A program made the position numbers and the translations under genes. Below the pieces are notes generated by a model. It ran no database searches and was not told the origin of the DNA. It saw only the letters and a list, made by a program, of their open reading frames with translations. From a virus, in IMG/VR virus record IMGVR_UViG_3300045988_169645: a stretch of 64,000 nucleotides of DNA; one strand, written 5' to 3'. This document shows positions 1 to 64,000 of the stretch, one piece after another (position 1 is the stretch's first letter; the number at the start of each line of letters is the position of its first letter).

Positions 1-555
1 ATCCATTAAAGCCATTGCTCTACCAAAATCTCTACTCTCATCAGTAGGCTCTCCGATGTGTAAATGTAAAATTGTATCTGGACTAACCTCAATATGAAGC
101 ATAGTTTCATTTACTATATCCAAACACTTAGGTAAATCACATCCTTTAAACTTATCTGTACTTTTTACAATAATATCATAACCCACATGACACATATCCT
201 GTGTCATAATGCCTGACCATACTACCCCTTTATACTCAAAGTCCTCAAAACCATATTCACCACAAGATAAAAACTCTGTGGCGAAGCCTAAAGTATGTGC
301 ATTAAAATTTTGAATTCTACATAAATATATCAAACCTCTACCAAGAATAATTGAAGCTATGTGCTTGTTAAAAACACCTTCAGCTGGAGTATAGGATTTT
401 AGTGGTCTTACACCAAAAACTGCTATATTTTGTTTCTTCATTGCTTTCTCAACTTCTCTGAAAGTCATTGTATCTACTACCCCATCTGAAGTATCAATTA
501 TTTTTAGCGTACCTTCTCTATTGCTTACAAGTTTATAATCTACTACATAAAACAT
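1..555 (-). CDS. hypothetical protein, 3' end cut off by the window edge (N-terminal 185 aa visible)
   Basis: ATG at 553-555 on the minus strand with an open frame running to position 1. Translation starts MFYVVDYKLVSNREGTLKIID. No recognisable motif. Confidence 0.4.
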   Translation of the reverse strand, partial: MFYVVDYKLVSNREGTLKIIDTSDGVVDTMTFREVEKAMKKQNIAVFGVRPLKSYTPAEGVFNKHIASIILGRGLIYLCRIQNFNAHTLGFATEFLSCGEYGFEDFEYKGVVWSGIMTQDMCHVGYDIIVKSTDKFKGCDLPKCLDIVNETMLHIEVSPDTILHLHIGEPTDESRDFGRAMALMD

Positions 556-659
556 AATTATCACCTCATACAAATTTTATAAAATATAAACTCAAATTTG
601 TAATAAAAAAGAGAGTATTGATTTCTCAATACCCTCTTTCTATAACTAGCACCTAGAAA

Positions 660-1835
660 CTACTCTGTAGCTACCCCTGTGTTAGGCATCTCTCCAGTCA
701 GATTGCCTGCTGGAACAGCACCTGCTGGGGCGGAAGTTTCAACTGGTGTAGCACCGCCAAAACCTGCGAGAGCTGAATCTGCATTGCCATTAGGTAAAGC
801 AGGTGCTCCTGTAGGAGTTGCAGTTCCTGCACCAAGTTCGTACATTGCAAGTTTATCACGAACTGGCTTAAGCAACTGATCAGCTACCCCTTTAAGCTCT
901 TCCATATCACGAACTGAATCGAGAACTACAACTTCCTGAGCCTTAGCTGGAGTCCAATCCTCAGTTAACTTATCGAAGTATTCTGCCCACTTCTCATAAC
1001 CATTCATAGGCTTGAATGTTACTTTAAGAGCCTTAGCAGAACCCATCTTATCGTGATTTCCAGACTTAACTGTGTAAGTGAAGTTTAAGATAGCCCATAA
1101 TCCTGCTGGCTGAGTAGGTACTGTTCCATCTTCTGAGTCGATAGAATCGAAACCTGCCTGCCACTTGTCAAGATATGTACGCTCACGAATTGAATACCAC
1201 ATAGGTGTACCCTTAATCTGACCGTTGGCATCCTTCTCTGGAATAGTTGTAGGAACTCCATCCTGCTCTGTACACTTAATCACTACGATTGGGAATGTGT
1301 ACCAAATCTCTGGCTGTTTAATAACCATCTGCTGAACAAGATTAATTCTATCCTGCTTGAGAGCTTCCTGAGCTTCTGGTGACTTAGGGTCGATGCCTTT
1401 AGTTCTTGCGATGTCTGCATACGCATGATTGTATAACTGCCATGCTTCATTCATGCCATCACAAAGAGGACAAGAACCATCAAGACCTAATTCTTCAAGA
1501 ACTACCCCCTGAGAGCATCTTACATCGCCATAGCTTCTGCCGTCAATAACTGGATGAGCTGCGAACTTATCCATTCTAAGACCTACAGTTCCGTCTGTAC
1601 CCATTGTAGTATGGTTAGGAATGTAAATCAGAACCTTCTGATTGACTGGCACATCAAACACTGGGAAATCAGAATCATAAGATTTAATTCTAACTGCCTT
1701 TCCAGTCTGCTGTGCTGAAGCCTGTATAATAGCCTCCTGTGCTTCTGCACTTAACTTCTTAGGTGTTGGTCTTTTTAACATAATTTTTACCTCCGTTTGA
1801 TAAGTTGATAGTTTGTTAATTTGGTAATTTGACAC
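660..1835 (-). CDS. possible gp32-like ssDNA-binding protein with Gly/Ala/Pro-rich C-terminal tail
   Basis: 391 aa ORF. The His/Cys spacing H-x12-C-x15-C-x2-C (AAHPVIDGRSYGDVRC...GSCPLCDG) resembles the gp32 zinc site. Low-complexity C-terminal tail. Replication-gene neighbourhood. Confidence 0.4.
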   Translation of the reverse strand: MSNYQINKLSTYQTEVKIMLKRPTPKKLSAEAQEAIIQASAQQTGKAVRIKSYDSDFPVFDVPVNQKVLIYIPNHTTMGTDGTVGLRMDKFAAHPVIDGRSYGDVRCSQGVVLEELGLDGSCPLCDGMNEAWQLYNHAYADIARTKGIDPKSPEAQEALKQDRINLVQQMVIKQPEIWYTFPIVVIKCTEQDGVPTTIPEKDANGQIKGTPMWYSIRERTYLDKWQAGFDSIDSEDGTVPTQPAGLWAILNFTYTVKSGNHDKMGSAKALKVTFKPMNGYEKWAEYFDKLTEDWTPAKAQEVVVLDSVRDMEELKGVADQLLKPVRDKLAMYELGAGTATPTGAPALPNGNADSALAGFGGATPVETSAPAGAVPAGNLTGEMPNTGVATE

Positions 1836-1913
1836 TAAGTATTACGCAACTTAGCACTGCGGTGCTTAAACTTCATTCTCGACCAAAAGAACTTTGCTTA
1901 AGATATATAAAAG

Positions 1914-1935
1914 TTTCACGAAAAATTTCGTAAAA
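1914..1935. promoter_or_regulatory. 22-bp imperfect palindrome TTTCACGAAA-AA-TTTCGTAAAA in the 5' region of the ssb-like gene (candidate operator)
   Basis: 10-bp inverted-repeat arms with one mismatch and a 2-nt spacer, read directly from the sequence. Confidence 0.3.
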
Positions 1936-61897: not shown

Positions 61898-63144
61898 CCT
61901 CTTGAAACTGTGTCAAATAATTGACTAGCAAACTTAGGTGGTAGATTGATGCATCCATGAGAACCGCCACCCTTATAACGACTACCACCAAAATATGGTT
62001 GCCAATTTGCATCATGCAAACCAATACCAGTATTAGTTAACCTCATCCATTTATTAACCCAAGTTTTATATGTATCCCCAGTTAAATACTTACCATTAAT
62101 ACATTCAGATATGAAATAACAACCAGTCGGTGTATCACGCTTCTTCGTAGCATCGCCTGTTACTACATCAGTCTCCATAATCATTTCGCCATCTTTATAC
62201 ACCCAAAGATGCTGGTCAGCAATACTCAGTTCTATATATGTATCAGTAAGATCTTCATAGCTATAAGAGTACTCTGGTACTCTATCAGTTATACTCTCGC
62301 CTTTTTCAAACTGCTCGGTCAAATAAGCAACTTCTTTCTCAAGGCTTGGTTGACTACCCCAAGTACCTCCACTTACTTCAATCTTCTCGCCAGTATGCGT
62401 TGTAAAATCACGTGCTATACCTACAGTGCTATAAGACTTTAGAATATCTCTGATAGCTTTAGAAATCCAAGATGAATCAACAGAAATTTCTCCTGTATCA
62501 GAATCATAAATAACATATTCTGGACTTGACTTGATTTCTGAGCCGTTAGTATATTTACAACTCCAATTTTCTAAAGACTCAATTTCCTCAAATTTAGGCT
62601 CTAAGTCCTCTTTCGTGACCTGAGGTTTAATAAAATAGTCAGAAACTGTAATAGAAATAGTATCACTCGTAAGTGCATCTAAGAATGCGTTAATGTCAAT
62701 CTTATTACCATCTTCTTCTGGCACTAAGCTAAAAGTATCAGACTTTTCAATACTTGCATCAACTGGGTCAGTTGCTGTAATATTATAATTCTCAAGATAA
62801 CTTCTTAATCCATCTTTATCGAACTTCACTTCATATACTAAAGAATTATCTTTACCAGATAATGCTAAATCTATCCTCGTAAATAAACCTGCTTTAAGTA
62901 AATTTTCAACATCTACATTGTATGTAACAAACTGATTTAACTCTGGCATATCAAAAACAGGATTACTTTCTTTCAAATCTGCTGTAACTTCACTGCATAA
63001 ATCCTTATAATTATATTCTTTACCTAAAACTGTAACAGGTAAATAATCTCGTAAAAAATAGGTAGTTCCTAAAGCTACCACTGAGAGACCAACAATTCCT
63101 ACAACTAAACCAATAACTACTCTCTTCTTCAATTCTTTTCCCAT
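61876..63144 (-). CDS. membrane-anchored L,D-transpeptidase (YkuD domain)
   Basis: N-terminal TM helix. C-terminal LTNTGIGLHDANW ... GGGSHGCINLP is the YkuD catalytic His/Cys motif. Start taken at the internal ATG (MGKELKK); the ORF-track start is GTG. Confidence 0.75.
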   Translation of the reverse strand: MGKELKKRVVIGLVVGIVGLSVVALGTTYFLRDYLPVTVLGKEYNYKDLCSEVTADLKESNPVFDMPELNQFVTYNVDVENLLKAGLFTRIDLALSGKDNSLVYEVKFDKDGLRSYLENYNITATDPVDASIEKSDTFSLVPEEDGNKIDINAFLDALTSDTISITVSDYFIKPQVTKEDLEPKFEEIESLENWSCKYTNGSEIKSSPEYVIYDSDTGEISVDSSWISKAIRDILKSYSTVGIARDFTTHTGEKIEVSGGTWGSQPSLEKEVAYLTEQFEKGESITDRVPEYSYSYEDLTDTYIELSIADQHLWVYKDGEMIMETDVVTGDATKKRDTPTGCYFISECINGKYLTGDTYKTWVNKWMRLTNTGIGLHDANWQPYFGGSRYKGGGSHGCINLPPKFASQLFDTVSRGWLVVIY

Positions 63145-63146
63145 CC

Positions 63147-63944
63147 TTAAACGTGTGATACTATTGTGACGTTTAAACACGAAGTATCGTGTAAAAGGTC
63201 AAATAATTCGTTAGTTATAATTTCCCTTACAACTGGTCTCAAAGGGTAGCATTTATTCTGTGCAACAACTTCACATACTTTTCCATCACTCAATATAACT
63301 TTAGTACCTATAGGGTATAAAATAACACATCCAAGAAAAGCATTAAGAAAATTTACATCAAATTGAGGACTCATACCCAACAACATCTCAATAGCTGTAG
63401 CTTGCTCAATCATATCATCTCTATATGGGCGTTTAGTTACAAGAGCATCATATACATCTACAACACTCAATAATCTACCAAATCTATGAATTTTACTAGT
63501 TTTAACACCTAAAGGGTATCCAGTTCCATCTATTTTCTCGTGATGCATAAGAATACCCTGCTTTGTTCCTTCTGATAATTTATTATTATTCTTGACCAAG
63601 TTATATCCATAAATCGGATGTTTCTTAATCATATCAAATTCCTCATTAGTCAACTTACCTGGTTTATTTAATACTTCTTTGGGAATTTCTACTTTACCTA
63701 AGTCATGAAGCAAACCTGCTGTAGCTATATCTTGAACATCTTTATCATTCATACCAACTTTCTTAGCTACTAACATACCCATTGTTGCAACATCAACACA
63801 ATGCTTAAATGTATAATCATCACTAACTTTAAGAGAATTTATTGAAATATTGACACCATTATTCTGATTTATACTGTTTAATAGAATACTAGACGTTTCT
63901 CTAGCTGCATCTACAGAGTCAGCAGATGTTGGATTGGAGTACAT
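63147..63944 (-). CDS. HD-GYP domain phosphodiesterase (second copy)
   Basis: LLHDLGKVEIP ... HHEKIDGTGYPLGV ... VVDVYDALVTKRPY. Confidence 0.8.
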   Translation of the reverse strand: MYSNPTSADSVDAARETSSILLNSINQNNGVNISINSLKVSDDYTFKHCVDVATMGMLVAKKVGMNDKDVQDIATAGLLHDLGKVEIPKEVLNKPGKLTNEEFDMIKKHPIYGYNLVKNNNKLSEGTKQGILMHHEKIDGTGYPLGVKTSKIHRFGRLLSVVDVYDALVTKRPYRDDMIEQATAIEMLLGMSPQFDVNFLNAFLGCVILYPIGTKVILSDGKVCEVVAQNKCYPLRPVVREIITNELFDLLHDTSCLNVTIVSHV

Positions 63945-64000
63945 ATATTCTACCCCTTGTAATGCTCTATCCTTAACATCTTGCTCAAGTTCTACAATAT
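63920..64000 (-). CDS. 3' end of an upstream gene (5' part outside the window)
   Basis: Open frame ...IVELEQDVKDRALQGVEYVLQSNIC* overlapping the start of the HD-GYP gene. Confidence 0.3.

What the first reader, a model, noticed from the sequence alone, without database searches (positions are those of the whole stretch)
1..64000. Extreme strand-specific over-representation of the heptamer GGGGTAG
- Reading the plus strand, CTACCCC (usually CTACCCC[T/C/A]) recurs about once per 700-800 bp. I counted roughly 85 copies by eye, for example at 668, 889, 1503, 2640, 3049, 4249, 5035, 5457, 6279, 8094, 8936, 9557, 10487, 11060, 11763, 12772, 13580 ... 62355, 63953. There are about 10 near-variants ATACCCC / GTACCCC / TTACCCC. 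I did not find one clear GGGGTAG on the plus strand.
- Almost every CCCC run on the plus strand (GGGG on the coding strand) is part of this motif.
- Base composition would predict only a handful of copies.
- Inside genes it is always read in one of the two stop-free frames: GGG-GTA-Gnn (Gly-Val-x) or nGG-GGT-AGn (x-Gly-Ser). It therefore forces the rare Gly codon GGG.
- In several intergenic spacers it sits where the Shine-Dalgarno sequence should be (24279, 25921, 36626, 48482, 57413, 13580). Twice its TAG is the stop codon of a gene (5035, 13580).
- This is the profile of a DNA-level polar signal. Candidates are a Chi-like recombination hotspot for the host AddAB/RecBCD, a KOPS/SRS-like translocase-orienting sequence, a lagging-strand primase recognition site for the encoded Toprim primase, a strand-specific nicking site (T5-like), or a modification target.
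Basis: seen in the sequence. Interest (0 to 1): 0.85.

Follow-up and report, generated by a model that had tools for sequence, protein, structure and literature searches.

The report
One-strand heptamer code of giant plasmids
A seven-base word, GGGGTAG, is written about every 730 bases on only one DNA strand of a roughly 370-kb gut plasmid related to Bacillus thuringiensis pXO16, most likely as start sites for the plasmid's own primase, which would be an unusually long and replicon-private priming signal.

Summary
CTACCCC occurs 88 times on the + strand and GGGGTAG never does. It is the commonest heptamer in the window. Low-order Markov models expect about 3 copies and synonymous-codon shuffles about 8.

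New findings:
- Copies are spaced far more evenly than chance (CV 0.52; largest gap 1.9 kb).
- The window is not a typical phage. It belongs to 365-410 kb gut elements related to pXO16, the 350-kb conjugative plasmid of Bacillus thuringiensis.
- In pXO16 all 454 genes lie on one strand, and GGGGTA occurs 658 times on that strand against 5 on the other, around the whole circle with no polarity switch.
- Three co-resident plasmids of the same host lack the motif, so it is probably not host Chi or KOPS.
- Every related lineage has its own one-strand word built on GGTA (GGGGTAG, GGGGGTA, GGGTATC, GGTATCGC and others).
- Individual sites are conserved between close relatives but turn over at distance while density is kept.

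Best explanation (about 0.42): initiation sites for the element's own DnaG-type primase on the lagging-strand or transferred strand, by analogy with T7 GGGTC giving pppACCC. This is not proven. Rivals are an element-read Chi-like signal, a translocase guide and a transcription-elongation signal.

The parts
1..64000 (-). Array of 88 GGGGTAG copies, read on the - (coding) strand. The + strand CTACCCC copies start at 222, 477, 671, 884, 1502, 2636, 3070, 3198, 4252, 5035, 5454, 6274, 6763, 8092, 8921, 9556, 10484, 11057, 11768, 12769, 13580, 14461, 14746, 15624, 16592, 17436, 19199, 20120, 20867, 21527, 21730, 23405, 24279, 25050, 25921, 26745, 27097, 27909, 28775, 29466, 30261, 30321, 30710, 31540, 32602, 33964, 34683, 36629, 36923, 37184, 37669, 38615, 39042, 39668, 40491, 40615, 41323, 42494, 43289, 43765, 44983, 45486, 45995, 46822, 47436, 48187, 48481, 49505, 50921, 51305, 52353, 52890, 53426, 53805, 54381, 54875, 56312, 57413, 57963, 58629, 59019, 59626, 60160, 60654, 61300, 61466, 62354, 63950. 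Each copy is 7 bp.
   Evidence: Exact count. The logo is sharp over 7 bp, with weak flanks: A at -1, C avoided at -1, G avoided at +7, T at +8. Even spacing is shown.
4221..5030 (-). Gene for a 269-aa DnaG-type primase catalytic (TOPRIM / RNA-polymerase) subunit that lacks a zinc-binding domain. It is the candidate reader/user of the motif.
   Evidence: Pfam Toprim_2. PDB match to Aquifex DnaG 2au3, E 7e-5, with the EGxxD and DDD motifs. PHROG DNA primase families 47, 6444 and 849. At 49% identity it is the most conserved protein shared with pXO16.
5035..5041 (-). Motif copy whose TAG is the stop codon of the sigma-70 gene (5035-6039). Its G-run serves as the Shine-Dalgarno sequence of the primase gene, which starts at 5030.
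   Evidence: Context on the coding strand: CAAGGGGGTAGTTAAATG.
13580..13586 (-). Motif copy used both as a stop codon (gene 13580-14440) and as the Shine-Dalgarno sequence of the next gene (start 13576).
48481..48487 (-). Motif copy used both as a stop codon (T2SSE/VirB11-like ATPase gene 48481-49569) and as the Shine-Dalgarno sequence of the next gene (start 48475).
19728..24272 (-). Family A DNA polymerase gene with a 3'-5' exonuclease domain, interrupted by an intein. It was used as the marker gene for finding relatives. Motif positions inside it turn over between lineages.
   Evidence: Pfam, homologues, position comparison.
20856..21951 (-). LAGLIDADG intein inside the polymerase gene. It is absent from a 98.5%-identical strain, yet carries three correctly oriented motif copies (20867, 21527, 21730).
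   Evidence: About 0.05 copies are expected by chance in 1.1 kb.
37223..38155 (-). Protein corresponding to the C-terminal half of NAD-dependent DNA ligase (zinc finger and distal part) without the adenylation domain. It is conserved in pXO16 (38% identity) and is part of the conserved replication-linked core.
8826..12086 (-). RecD-like SF1 helicase (1086 aa). It was considered as a possible Chi-type reader but has no counterpart in pXO16.
7442..8704 (-). TnpB (IS605 OrfB-type) gene. It is fixed at this site in all strains sampled, lies on the same strand as every other gene, and contains one motif copy (8092).

Best explanation
GGGGTAG is this lineage's version of a polar, evenly spaced signal that pervades pXO16-like giant conjugative plasmids of Firmicutes. 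Its reader is most likely encoded by the element, not the host.

**Most likely mechanism (inferred, not shown).**
- Each copy is an initiation site for the element's own DnaG-type primase. In pXO16 that primase is split into a zinc-ribbon subunit and a TOPRIM subunit.
- The motif lies on the G-rich coding strand. That strand would be the lagging-strand template if replication runs unidirectionally with transcription. It is also a candidate for the single strand delivered to the recipient during conjugation.
- Read 3'->5' the site is 3'-G-A-T-G-G-G-G-5'. By analogy with T7 (3'-C-T-G-G-G/T-5' giving pppACCC/pppACCA), A (and G) would be the uncopied 'cryptic' recognition bases, T the start, and the primer pppACCCC.

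**Why this would produce the observed pattern.** A 6-7-base requirement almost never occurs by chance in 33% GC DNA. The replicon would therefore have to write sites into its genes at Okazaki-fragment intervals (0.3-1.3 kb; gaps rarely above 2 kb). That would account for the excess, the even spacing, the use of the rare GGG codon and the amino-acid changes.

**Shown.**
- The excess, the strand restriction, the even spacing and the purifying selection with turnover.
- Family-wide variants sharing GGTA.
- Absence from co-resident plasmids of the same host.
- Presence of a primase catalytic subunit in the window.
- A complete private replisome in pXO16 and, in part, in the gut clade.

**Inferred.**
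- The direction of replication.
- Which strand is transferred.
- That the primase reads the motif.
For: 1. **One strand, no switch.** The motif is confined to the G-rich coding strand. In pXO16 GGGGTA is 658 vs 5 around the whole circle, with all 454 genes and the GC skew in one direction. In the window's lineage the same orientation holds at loci 208 kb apart on one contig.
2. **Okazaki-scale, under-dispersed spacing in nearly every lineage.** CV is 0.5-0.8, mean spacing 240-1300 bp, and the largest gaps are about 2 kb in most lineages, up to about 4.5 kb in two sparsely sampled loci. T7's known primase sites have a mean spacing of 335 bp and a maximum of 1450 bp.
3. **Invariant GGTA core with lineage-specific flanks**. 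Read 3'->5' this is A-T-G-G, the same T-G-G start as the T7 site 3'-CTGGT-5' that gives pppACCA (PMC9198812). In the DnaG family the zinc-binding domain provides sequence recognition (same paper).
4. **Element-specific, not host-wide.** pBtic235, pBtoxis and pBtic360 from the same B. thuringiensis background have observed counts close to expected.
5. **The elements carry their own lagging-strand machinery.** The window has the TOPRIM primase subunit, PolA and a ligase-C-like protein. pXO16 adds a separate DnaG zinc-ribbon protein, DnaB, RNase H, NAD ligase and gyrase. The gut clade has DnaB, GyrA and GyrB.
6. **The primase subunit is the best-conserved shared protein.** It is 49% identical between the window and pXO16, which share GGGGTA. 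In the B. velezensis relative, which has no long motif, it is only 27% identical.
7. **Conjugation context.** pXO16 transfers single-stranded DNA, and plasmids it mobilises need an intact, correctly oriented single-strand origin (review PMC6199540). Priming on the incoming strand is therefore limiting in this system.
8. **Placement ignores gene boundaries.** It also persists in an ORF-poor 4.4-kb stretch of pXO16.
Against: - There is no biochemical evidence. No primase is known to need 6-7 specified bases, and in some lineages (GGTATCGC) most of the specificity would lie in the uncopied 3' part, which has no precedent.
- T7, the model used for the analogy, shows only 1.2-1.9-fold enrichment of its sites and no strand bias. 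There is therefore no precedent for a genome being rewritten around primase sites.
- The zinc-ribbon partner was not found in the roughly 30% of the gut element that could be sampled.
- The B. velezensis relative has the same split primase but no enriched long word.
- The replication direction is inferred from GC skew and gene orientation only.
- Transcription and replication are perfectly collinear in every motif-bearing member seen. A transcription-coupled or RNA-level reader therefore cannot be excluded by sequence alone.
Confidence: 0.42

Rival explanations
1. Chi-like signal. The motif regulates a helicase-nuclease, either host AddAB/RecBCD or an element-encoded enzyme. DNA ends on the plasmid or on the incoming strand would then be protected and channelled into recombinational repair.
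For: - The word is G-rich, polar and over-represented on the G-rich strand, like Chi in bacteria (established knowledge).
- Dense, even coverage would limit degradation from any break.
- Lineage-specific variants with a shared core resemble the way Chi differs between genera.
- The window encodes a large RecD-like helicase, and pXO16 a UvrD-like helicase and nucleases.
Against: - Three co-resident plasmids in the same host show no enrichment, including a 50-kb one-strand gene block of pBtic235.
- The known Firmicute Chi words AGCGG, GAAGCGG and GCGCGTG are not enriched, and the motif matches none of them.
- The RecD-like helicase has no counterpart in pXO16, and no AddAB/RecBCD-type gene set was seen.
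- A density of 1 per 0.25-0.7 kb is several-fold higher than 7-8-mer Chi sites in chromosomes (established knowledge).
- Host chromosomes themselves could not be counted.
Confidence: 0.15
2. Transcription-coupled or RNA-level signal. The word would be read on the non-template strand of the transcription bubble (like RfaH ops or sigma-dependent pause elements), or in the mRNA (processing, stability, or a protein-binding site). This could keep very long co-directional transcription units processive.
For: - The motif is always on the non-template strand of 100% co-oriented genes.
- The elements encode their own sigma-70-type factors.
- GGGGTAG differs by one base from positions 2-8 of the RfaH ops consensus GGCGGTAGnnTG (ops recalled from memory).
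- G-rich variants double as Shine-Dalgarno sequences: 9 of 69 genes here, 92 of 470 in pXO16.
Against: - Non-G4 variants (GGGTATC, GGGTAT, GGTATCG) are not enriched near gene starts or in non-coding DNA, so a link to translation initiation is not general.
- Positions within genes are roughly uniform.
- ops-type elements act once per operon leader, not every 0.5 kb.
- No NusG/RfaH-like protein was seen among the window proteins scanned (18 small ORFs were not scanned).
- The motif persists in an ORF-poor region of pXO16.
- RfaH is proteobacterial.
Confidence: 0.14
3. Guide for a DNA translocase. The polar words would orient an element-encoded FtsK/SpoIIIE-family motor, either a coupling protein of the conjugation apparatus or a segregation pump, as KOPS/SRS orient FtsK/SpoIIIE and TRS repeats guide Streptomyces TraB.
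For: - pXO16 encodes a 776-aa FtsK/SpoIIIE-domain protein and transfers 350 kb very fast.
- The signal is strictly polar over the whole circle.
- It is element-specific.
Against: - No FtsK gamma (winged-helix) domain was detected in the pXO16 protein.
- KOPS/SRS skews switch at dif, whereas here there is no switch.
- Known guides are roughly ten-fold sparser (established knowledge).
- pXO16 mobilises plasmids and chromosomal markers that lack the word (review PMC6199540), so transfer does not require it.
- No FtsK-like gene was seen in the sampled parts of the gut element.
Confidence: 0.1
4. Site-specific single-strand nicks (T5-like), or a strand-specific base modification target.
For: - The word is strictly one-stranded, short and sharply defined.
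- The elements encode HNH, GIY-YIG and other nucleases.
Against: - Neither reading explains why the word should be over-represented and evenly spaced rather than merely tolerated.
- Hundreds of nicks in one strand of a stable single-copy 350-kb plasmid seem costly.
- No methyltransferase or nickase is conserved between the window and pXO16.
- This cannot be tested from sequence.
Confidence: 0.07
5. By-product of composition, codon-pair usage or a dispersed repeat, with no function.
For: GGT and GTA are the preferred Gly and Val codons, and the coding strand is very G-over-C skewed. GGTA is therefore common in any case.
Against: - Synonymous shuffles give 7.9 against 74 observed.
- The rare GGG codon is used at 45 of 59 eligible Gly-Val sites.
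- There is no flanking similarity, so this is not a repeat.
- Sites are conserved about twice as well as random 7-mers.
- The same word persists at 45% GC.
- The B. velezensis relative, with similar composition and skew, has no such word.
Confidence: 0.01

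Closest known systems
Bacteriophage T7 gp4 primase recognition sites (5'-GGGTC-3', 5'-TGGTC-3', 5'-GTGTC-3', giving pppACCC/ACCA/ACAC)
   Same: - Both are short G-rich words ending in T plus an uncopied 3' base.
- Read 3'->5', both contain T-G-G.
- Both belong to a replicon with its own DnaG-family primase and family A polymerase and all genes on one strand.
- Site spacing is of the same order.
   Different: - T7 sites are 5-mers that occur by chance on both strands and are only 1.2-1.9-fold enriched.
- Here the word is 6-8 bases, 5-40-fold enriched and confined to one strand.
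- The cryptic base would be A, not C.
- The primase is split, and in the window it lacks a zinc domain.
- Priming at the motif is untested.
Chi sites (E. coli GCTGGTGG; B. subtilis AGCGG; L. lactis GCGCGTG; S. aureus GAAGCGG)
   Same: Polar, G-rich, over-represented on the G-rich (leading) strand, and varying in sequence between lineages.
   Different: - Chi is a host-wide signal read by RecBCD/AddAB.
- This word is private to one plasmid family and absent from co-resident plasmids.
- It is much denser and evenly spaced.
- It matches no known Chi.
KOPS / SRS (FtsK and SpoIIIE orienting sequences) and Streptomyces TraB recognition sequences
   Same: Strand-polar short words that give direction to a process running along the DNA. 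An FtsK-family ATPase is encoded by pXO16.
   Different: - There is no polarity switch anywhere on the circle.
- The density is about ten times higher.
- No gamma domain was detected.
- The known words are not enriched.
Single-strand initiation signals of plasmids (sso of rolling-circle plasmids; ssi sites such as ssiA/ssiB of RSF1010; G4-type origins)
   Same: Orientation-specific signals on one strand that allow complementary-strand priming after single-strand transfer or displacement. The pXO16 system is known to depend on such signals in the plasmids it mobilises.
   Different: Those signals are one or two structured elements of 40-200 nt per plasmid. Here there are hundreds of unstructured 6-8-mers spread over the whole replicon.
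RfaH ops element (GGCGGTAGnnTG)
   Same: Six of seven bases match, and both lie on the non-template strand.
   Different: - ops occurs once in operon leaders of Proteobacteria and forms a small hairpin that the C-to-G change would break.
- Here there are hundreds of copies inside genes of Firmicute plasmids.
- Other lineages use non-ops-like words.
pXO16 of Bacillus thuringiensis sv. israelensis (NC_018516) and its kin
   Same: - The core is collinear: PolA 41%, primase subunit 49%, and eight further proteins.
- Size is 350-410 kb and GC 33%.
- All genes lie on one strand.
- The GGGGTA word is the same.
   Different: - The window's element comes from human gut metagenomes, probably with a clostridial host (a relative was binned with Lachnospiraceae).
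- Most accessory genes differ.
- pXO16 accepts G or T at position 7 and prefers A before the G-run.

Membership tests
Primase recognition/initiation site (DnaG / T7 gp4 type) | A cognate DnaG-family primase is encoded by the same replicon | tested here: met
   The window ORF 4221-5030 is a primase RNA-polymerase/TOPRIM subunit. pXO16 has this subunit plus a separate DnaG zinc-ribbon protein and DnaB. The zinc-ribbon partner was not located in the sampled parts of the gut element.
Primase recognition/initiation site (DnaG / T7 gp4 type) | Sites lie on the lagging-strand template | tested here: inconclusive
   The motif is on the G-rich coding strand. That is the lagging-strand template only if replication runs with transcription, which is inferred from skew and gene orientation and has not been measured.
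Primase recognition/initiation site (DnaG / T7 gp4 type) | Spacing is compatible with Okazaki fragments and covers the whole replicon | tested here: met
   Mean spacing is 240-1300 bp, most lineages have no gap much above 2 kb (two sparse loci reach about 4.5 kb), and CV is 0.5-0.8.
Primase recognition/initiation site (DnaG / T7 gp4 type) | Primers are actually started at the site (template T, with an uncopied 3' neighbour) | not testable with these tools
   This needs a primer-synthesis assay or 5'-end mapping. Only the formal analogy is available: 3'-ATGG-5' against T7 3'-CTGG-5'.
   Co-resident B. thuringiensis plasmids pBtic235, pBtoxis and pBtic360 show observed counts close to expected on both strands. 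This is a proxy only, because host chromosomes could not be fetched.
Chi (RecBCD/AddAB regulatory sequence) | Attenuates the nuclease and stimulates recombination | not testable with these tools
   This requires an in vitro or genetic assay.
Chi (RecBCD/AddAB regulatory sequence) | Matches or resembles the Chi of related hosts | tested here: not met
   AGCGG, GAAGCGG and GCGCGTG are not enriched in the window or in pXO16, and the motif shares no core with them.
KOPS / SRS translocase guides | Orientation switches at the terminus (dif), pointing the motor toward it | tested here: not met
   There is no switch anywhere on the 349.6-kb pXO16 circle. Orientation is the same at loci 208 kb apart in the window's lineage.
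   pXO16 has an FtsK_SpoIIIE ATPase protein, but Pfam finds no gamma domain. No such gene was found in the sampled gut-element regions.
RfaH-ops-like elongation-factor loading site | One site in the leader of a long operon, plus a NusG paralogue | tested here: not met
   There are 88 copies in 64 kb, 85% of them inside genes. No NusG-like domain was found among the scanned window proteins.
Shine-Dalgarno sequence | Located 5-10 nt upstream of start codons and complementary to the 16S 3' end | tested here: not met
   Only 9 of 88 copies are so placed. Relatives' variants GGGTATC and GGTATCG are not SD-like and are not enriched upstream of starts.
T5-like strand-specific nick sites / modification targets | A physical nick or modified base at the word | not testable with these tools
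   This needs long-read kinetics or denaturing gels.
DNA uptake sequences (DUS/USS) | Similar numbers on both strands, and a competence machinery that reads them | tested here: not met
   Counts are 88 vs 0 here and 658 vs 5 in pXO16.
pXO16-like giant unidirectional conjugative plasmids (the replicon, not the motif) | A collinear conserved core (PolA, primase subunit, HD protein, several unknowns), 350-400 kb size, and all genes on one strand | tested here: met
   Ten collinear protein matches to NC_018516. Contigs are 365-410 kb. No opposite-strand gene occurs in the window, its flanks or the 58 related loci. Conjugation itself is untested for the gut element.

The most novel reading that the evidence does not exclude
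The word is a replicon-private priming code. A plasmid-encoded primase has evolved a 6-8-base specificity that essentially never occurs in host DNA, and the plasmid has rewritten its own genes to carry that word every few hundred bases on one strand. This would restrict the private replisome to self DNA. It would also allow very rapid, multi-site complementary-strand synthesis on the 350-kb single strand delivered by conjugation. Specificity and genome would co-evolve lineage by lineage (GGGGTAG, GGGGGTA, GGGTATC, GGTATCGC and others).
Probability: 0.33. Interest if true: 0.88.

Novelty: new variant of a known kind. Interest (0 to 1): 0.8.

Why it matters
- **A new example of selection on a DNA word.** If the word is a priming code, it would be the first case of a replicon whose whole coding sequence has been reshaped to supply long, strand-specific primase sites. 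Selection here overrides codon choice and even amino-acid sequence.
- **A possible handle on pXO16 biology.** It could help explain how giant single-strand-transferring plasmids convert hundreds of kilobases to duplex within minutes.
- **A practical marker.** It gives strand, orientation and lineage at a glance.
- **A tractable system.** pXO16 in Bacillus thuringiensis is a cultured, genetically accessible model in which the function can be tested directly.
- **Less-studied biology.** No description of this motif was found in the accessible literature on pXO16. The primary 2015 sequence paper was not readable here.

Tried and rejected
- **Literature search by the motif letters.** It returned only primer sequences.
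- **Near-identity search against GenBank phages.** No match.
- **IMG/VR scan with PolA peptides.** No match.
- **tRNA and Rfam scans of the window.** Nothing found.
- **Inocle hypothesis** (giant elements of oral Streptococcus). Size, GC and some gene classes are similar. However, Inocles have two replichores with an ORF orientation switch, and no sequence link was established, so I did not pursue it.
- **TnpB as a multicopy anchor to reach other genome regions.** It is single-copy.
- **Looking for a gene-strand or motif flip.** None was found in 58 related loci or in pXO16. Transcription and replication polarity therefore cannot be separated.
- **B. velezensis 215-kb relative, which has a few reversed genes.** It has no enriched long word, so it cannot serve as the separating case.
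- **Searching for the DnaG zinc-ribbon partner in the window, its flanks and the gut GyrA/DnaB locus.** Not found by tblastn or by a CHC2 pattern. A homologue search reached only Bacillus relatives.
- **PDB sequence searches of three conserved unknown proteins.** Uninformative.
- **The 646-aa protein downstream of the window.** It is not a paralogue of window 31625-33565.
- **Shine-Dalgarno explanation.** Rejected.
- **Composition or codon artefact.** Rejected.
- **Not used.** Structure prediction and fold search.

Full report
**1.

- CTACCCC occurs 88 times on the + strand and GGGGTAG not once. It is the commonest heptamer in the window.
- All long ORFs lie on the - strand. The + strand is C-rich throughout, with GC skew about -0.27 in every 4-kb bin. 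On the coding strand the word is therefore GGGGTAG.
- Markov models of order 0-3 expect 2.4-7.9 copies on that strand.
- The absence from the other strand is not informative by itself. With G at 12% there, only about 0.2 copies are expected (arithmetic).
- Shuffling synonymous codons within each gene gives 7.9 +/- 2.5 copies (maximum 16 of 500), against 74 inside coding sequence. Shuffling codon order gives 1.9 +/- 1.4.
- Where the protein sequence permits the word, it is nearly always used:
  - 45 of 59 Gly-Val-[ADEGV] tripeptides;
  - 29 of 37 [RWG]-Gly-[SR] tripeptides.
  GGG is otherwise a rare glycine codon. The Gly-Val dipeptide itself is over-represented, 117 against 84 expected.

**2. 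Anatomy of the motif**

- The signal is sharply 7 bp, with no flanking similarity, so it is not a dispersed repeat. The weak flank preferences are A before the G-run, C avoided there, no G after the word, and then T.
- 45 copies are read GGG-GTA-G and 29 are read nGG-GGT-AG. Three supply a TAG stop codon (5035, 13580, 48481). Eleven are not fully inside genes.
- Nine of 69 genes have the word where a Shine-Dalgarno sequence belongs, while 34 have an ordinary GGAGG-type one.
- Of 133 runs of four or more G on the coding strand, 88 are followed by TAG and 107 by TA.
- Positions within genes are roughly uniform.

**3. Spacing (new)**

- The 87 gaps have mean 733 bp and CV 0.52. Random placement gives 0.99 +/- 0.10 and never reached the observed value in 20,000 trials.
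- The largest gap is 1946 bp, against 3635 expected.
- Short gaps are avoided too: 3% are under 150 bp, against 19% expected.
- Selection therefore acts on coverage, not merely on copy number.

**4. What the replicon is**

- A window protein is encoded on human-gut metagenome contigs of 365-393 kb. Another look-up points to ERZ917763 k127_59545, 365,324 bp, as a likely source.
- The window has no tRNA and no Rfam hit, and no near match among GenBank phages.
- Genes in the window and its flanks:
  - an intein-containing family A polymerase, a RecD-like helicase and FtsH;
  - TnpB, a VirB11-like ATPase and flotillin;
  - a sigma-70 factor and a 269-aa TOPRIM protein;
  - an L,D-transpeptidase, an EAL protein and others.
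- The TOPRIM protein is a DnaG-type primase catalytic domain without a zinc finger.
- A protein search of plasmids found the closest cultured relative: the 349.6-kb plasmid pBTHD789-1 of Bacillus thuringiensis HD-789, with PolA 42.7% identical over 92% of the query.
- That plasmid is pXO16, the giant conjugative plasmid of serovar israelensis (review PMC6199540). The review notes that:
  - all its CDS share one orientation;
  - a phage-like nature has been suggested;
  - it transfers single-stranded DNA through a distant type IV system;
  - rolling-circle plasmids it mobilises need an intact, correctly oriented single-strand origin.
- Ten window proteins match pXO16 in collinear order. The primase subunit is the best conserved (49%), then PolA (41%).

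**5. The motif is a family trait with lineage-specific spelling**

- The window's flanks and strain variants carry 25-31 copies per 21-22 kb and none on the other strand.
- Relatives whose PolA is 85%, 76% and 71% identical keep GGGGTAG, including a lineage with 45% GC.
- One scan of species-representative genomes gave a 65% relative binned with an uncultured Lachnospiraceae MAG. There the word is GGGGTA[C/T], 43 vs 0.
- One metagenome scan gave 58 loci, down to 36% PolA identity.
- De novo k-mer ranking in each locus found a one-strand, over-represented word containing GGTA in nearly every lineage:
  - GGGGTAG
  - GGGGGTA
  - GGGTATC / GGGTACT
  - (A/T)GGGTAT(T)
  - GGGGTAC (53 copies in 20 kb)
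  - GGGGTAT
  - GGTATCG(C)
  - a weaker GGGTA in one lineage (L030, 69% PolA identity): 45 vs 4 between strands, but only about 1.7-fold above expectation and not the top-ranked word there
- Spacing is under-dispersed in nearly all of them, with CV 0.5-0.8.
- No opposite-strand gene of 120 aa or more exists in any related locus.

**6. pXO16 as a complete example, with controls**

- I fetched the whole circle. All 454 annotated features are on one strand.
- GGGGTA occurs 658 times on that strand and 5 times on the other. AGGGGTA is 461 vs 2, and the seventh base is G (307 copies) or T (247 copies).
- There are 40-55 copies in every 25-kb bin, and GC skew is +0.16 to +0.25 everywhere. There is no polarity switch, and the largest gap is 2071 bp.
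- Density is higher in non-coding DNA (3.75 against 1.64 per kb), largely because 92 of 470 genes use the word as a Shine-Dalgarno sequence. An ORF-poor 4.4-kb stretch still has eight copies.
- In lineages whose word is not G4-rich, it is not enriched near starts or in non-coding DNA. The Shine-Dalgarno use is therefore opportunistic.
- Controls from the same host background (50 kb each of pBtic235, pBtoxis and pBtic360) show observed counts close to expected on both strands. This includes a block of pBtic235 with all genes on one strand.
- Known Firmicute Chi, SRS and KOPS words are not enriched.
- A more distant relative, a 215-kb Bacillus velezensis plasmid, has PolA 30% and primase subunit 27% identical, the same split primase and similar composition. 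It has no enriched long word. Composition alone therefore does not create the motif.

**7. Genome-wide extent in the window's own lineage**

- A search seeded with the pXO16 gyrase A homologue found the gut clade's GyrB-GyrA-DnaB-SNF2-SpoVG module.
- That region carries 28-30 GGGGTAG and none on the other strand.
- On one 286-kb contig of a strain 98.5% identical to the window in the PolA region, GyrA (23.3-25.5 kb) and PolA (233.0-236.4 kb) are on the same strand, 208 kb apart.
- Adding the window's extent around PolA, same-orientation points span about 270 kb, whereas a symmetric two-replichore layout of a 365-393-kb circle would allow only about 195 kb. The intervening DNA was not read, so an asymmetric layout is not excluded.

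**8. Selection and turnover**

- Against relatives at about 85% nucleotide identity, 73-77% of motif copies are fully conserved, compared with 35-40% of random 7-mers. At 73% identity the figures are 38% against 15%.
- The 45%-GC lineage shares no positions with the window, yet keeps the density.
- In PolA, losses coincide with amino-acid changes (VGVVL to VGIIL) and gains with new Gly-Val sites.
- The polymerase intein (window 20856-21951) is absent from the 98.5%-identical strain. It nevertheless carries three correctly oriented copies where about 0.05 are expected. Without them the local gap would be 3.3 kb.

**9. Mechanism**

The facts to explain are:
- a word private to the element;
- restriction to one strand of a fully unidirectional replicon;
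- spacing at 0.25-1.3 kb with gaps rarely above 2 kb;
- indifference to gene boundaries;
- a constant GGTA core with flanks that evolve with the lineage.

The elements carry a private replisome:
- PolA, a split DnaG primase, DnaB, RNase H, NAD ligase and gyrase in pXO16;
- PolA, the primase subunit, DnaB and gyrase in the gut clade.

In DnaG-family primases the zinc-binding domain reads the template, and T7 gp4 makes pppACCA on 3'-CTGGT-5' (PMC9198812). Read the same way, the shared core is 3'-ATGG-5' and the window's word is 3'-GATGGGG-5'. This predicts a pppACCCC primer with A (and G) uncopied.

The G-rich coding strand is the lagging-strand template if replication runs with transcription (inferred). 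It could also be the strand that enters the recipient, where discontinuous priming is obligatory (inferred from pXO16 biology).

I therefore rank a replicon-private primase initiation site first, at about 0.42.

Weaknesses of this reading:
- there is no biochemistry;
- there is no precedent for such long primase specificity;
- T7 sites are barely enriched and show no strand bias;
- the zinc-ribbon partner was not found in the sampled gut DNA;
- the B. velezensis relative has the same split primase but no long word;
- transcription and replication are perfectly collinear in every motif-bearing member.

**10. Rivals**

| Rival reading | Weight | Main points |
|---|---|---|
| Chi-like signal | 0.15 | Fits the polarity and coverage. 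Poorly supported because co-resident plasmids lack the word, no AddAB/RecBCD-type reader is conserved, and the RecD-like helicase has no counterpart in pXO16. |
| Transcription- or RNA-level signal | 0.14 | Cannot be excluded. There is a 6/7 resemblance to RfaH ops (recalled from memory). But copy number, position inside genes and the non-ops-like variants argue against it. |
| Guide for an FtsK-family conjugation or segregation motor | 0.10 | Possible. No gamma domain was detected, there is no polarity switch, and pXO16 moves DNA lacking the word. |
| Nick or modification sites | 0.07 | Do not explain over-representation or even spacing. |
| Composition artefact | 0.01 | Excluded by the shuffles and controls. 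|

**11. Novelty**

- The kind of feature, a polar oligomer tied to DNA transactions, is known. This instance differs from each known class in being element-private, dense, evenly spaced, unswitched around a whole circle and re-spelled lineage by lineage.
- The accessible literature on pXO16 mentions the common gene orientation but no such motif. The primary 2015 sequence paper could not be read.
- I classify the finding as a new variant of a known kind. pXO16 provides a ready experimental system.

Noticed in passing
window 20856-21951 (inside PolA gene 19728-24272): A LAGLIDADG intein interrupts the polymerase. A 98.5%-identical strain (L106) lacks it. Other lineages have inteins or free-standing LAGLIDADG genes at or near the same gene (L019). 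The intein carries three motif copies, so it appears adapted to this element family.
   Followed up: partly
window 7442-8704: A TnpB (IS605 OrfB / Cas12f-like TNB) gene without a TnpA, fixed at the same site in all strains sampled. IS200/IS605 elements transpose through the lagging-strand template, so its orientation (same strand as all genes) could serve as an independent hint of replication direction. This was not analysed.
   Followed up: no
window ~12100-14900 (between the lysozyme-like gene 14893-16164 and the RecD-like helicase 8826-12086): A strain-variable cassette. Different strains carry 115+286+467-aa, 432/434+453-aa, or no genes here. The window's version still carries motif copies at the normal density.
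   Followed up: partly
window 37223-38155: A protein equal to the C-terminal half of NAD-dependent DNA ligase (zinc finger onward) with no adenylation domain. It is conserved in pXO16 at 38% identity. It may be a nick- or DNA-binding accessory of the replisome.
   Followed up: partly
window 52471-54303, 54723-55847, 61876-63180, 47369-48475; L017 406-1812, 11660-12400: Cell-type housekeeping and signalling genes on the element: FtsH protease, flotillin/SPFH, a YkuD L,D-transpeptidase with a peptidoglycan-binding domain, a HipA-like kinase, an EAL phosphodiesterase and a PARG-like protein.
   Followed up: no
NC_018516.1 (pXO16) 173139-173711 and 44525-45310; NZ_CP076292.1 34634-35203 and 71600-72334: The DnaG-type primase is split into a stand-alone zinc-ribbon protein and a stand-alone TOPRIM protein, encoded far apart. 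In the B. velezensis plasmid the zinc-ribbon gene sits next to dnaB.
   Followed up: partly
L019, L027, L028 (PolA 76%) and L021 (65%): Sister lineages have 44-46% GC against 31-34% in the window's clade, yet keep the G-rich one-strand word at the same density. The elements evidently track very different host compositions.
   Followed up: partly
whole window; pXO16: The strand compositional skews are unusually strong and uniform: GC skew 0.2-0.3 and purine-rich coding strand (AT skew +0.15-0.2) in pXO16. No sign change occurs around a complete circle, which suggests unidirectional replication or a dominant transcription-linked bias.
   Followed up: partly
window 26777-27247, 48481-49569, 14893-16164: Possible conjugation-apparatus genes: a weak PrgI-family hit, a VirB11/T2SSE-type ATPase (also matched in the B. 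velezensis plasmid) and a phage-tail-lysozyme-type cell-wall hydrolase. These would fit a pXO16-like transfer region near the replication genes.
   Followed up: no
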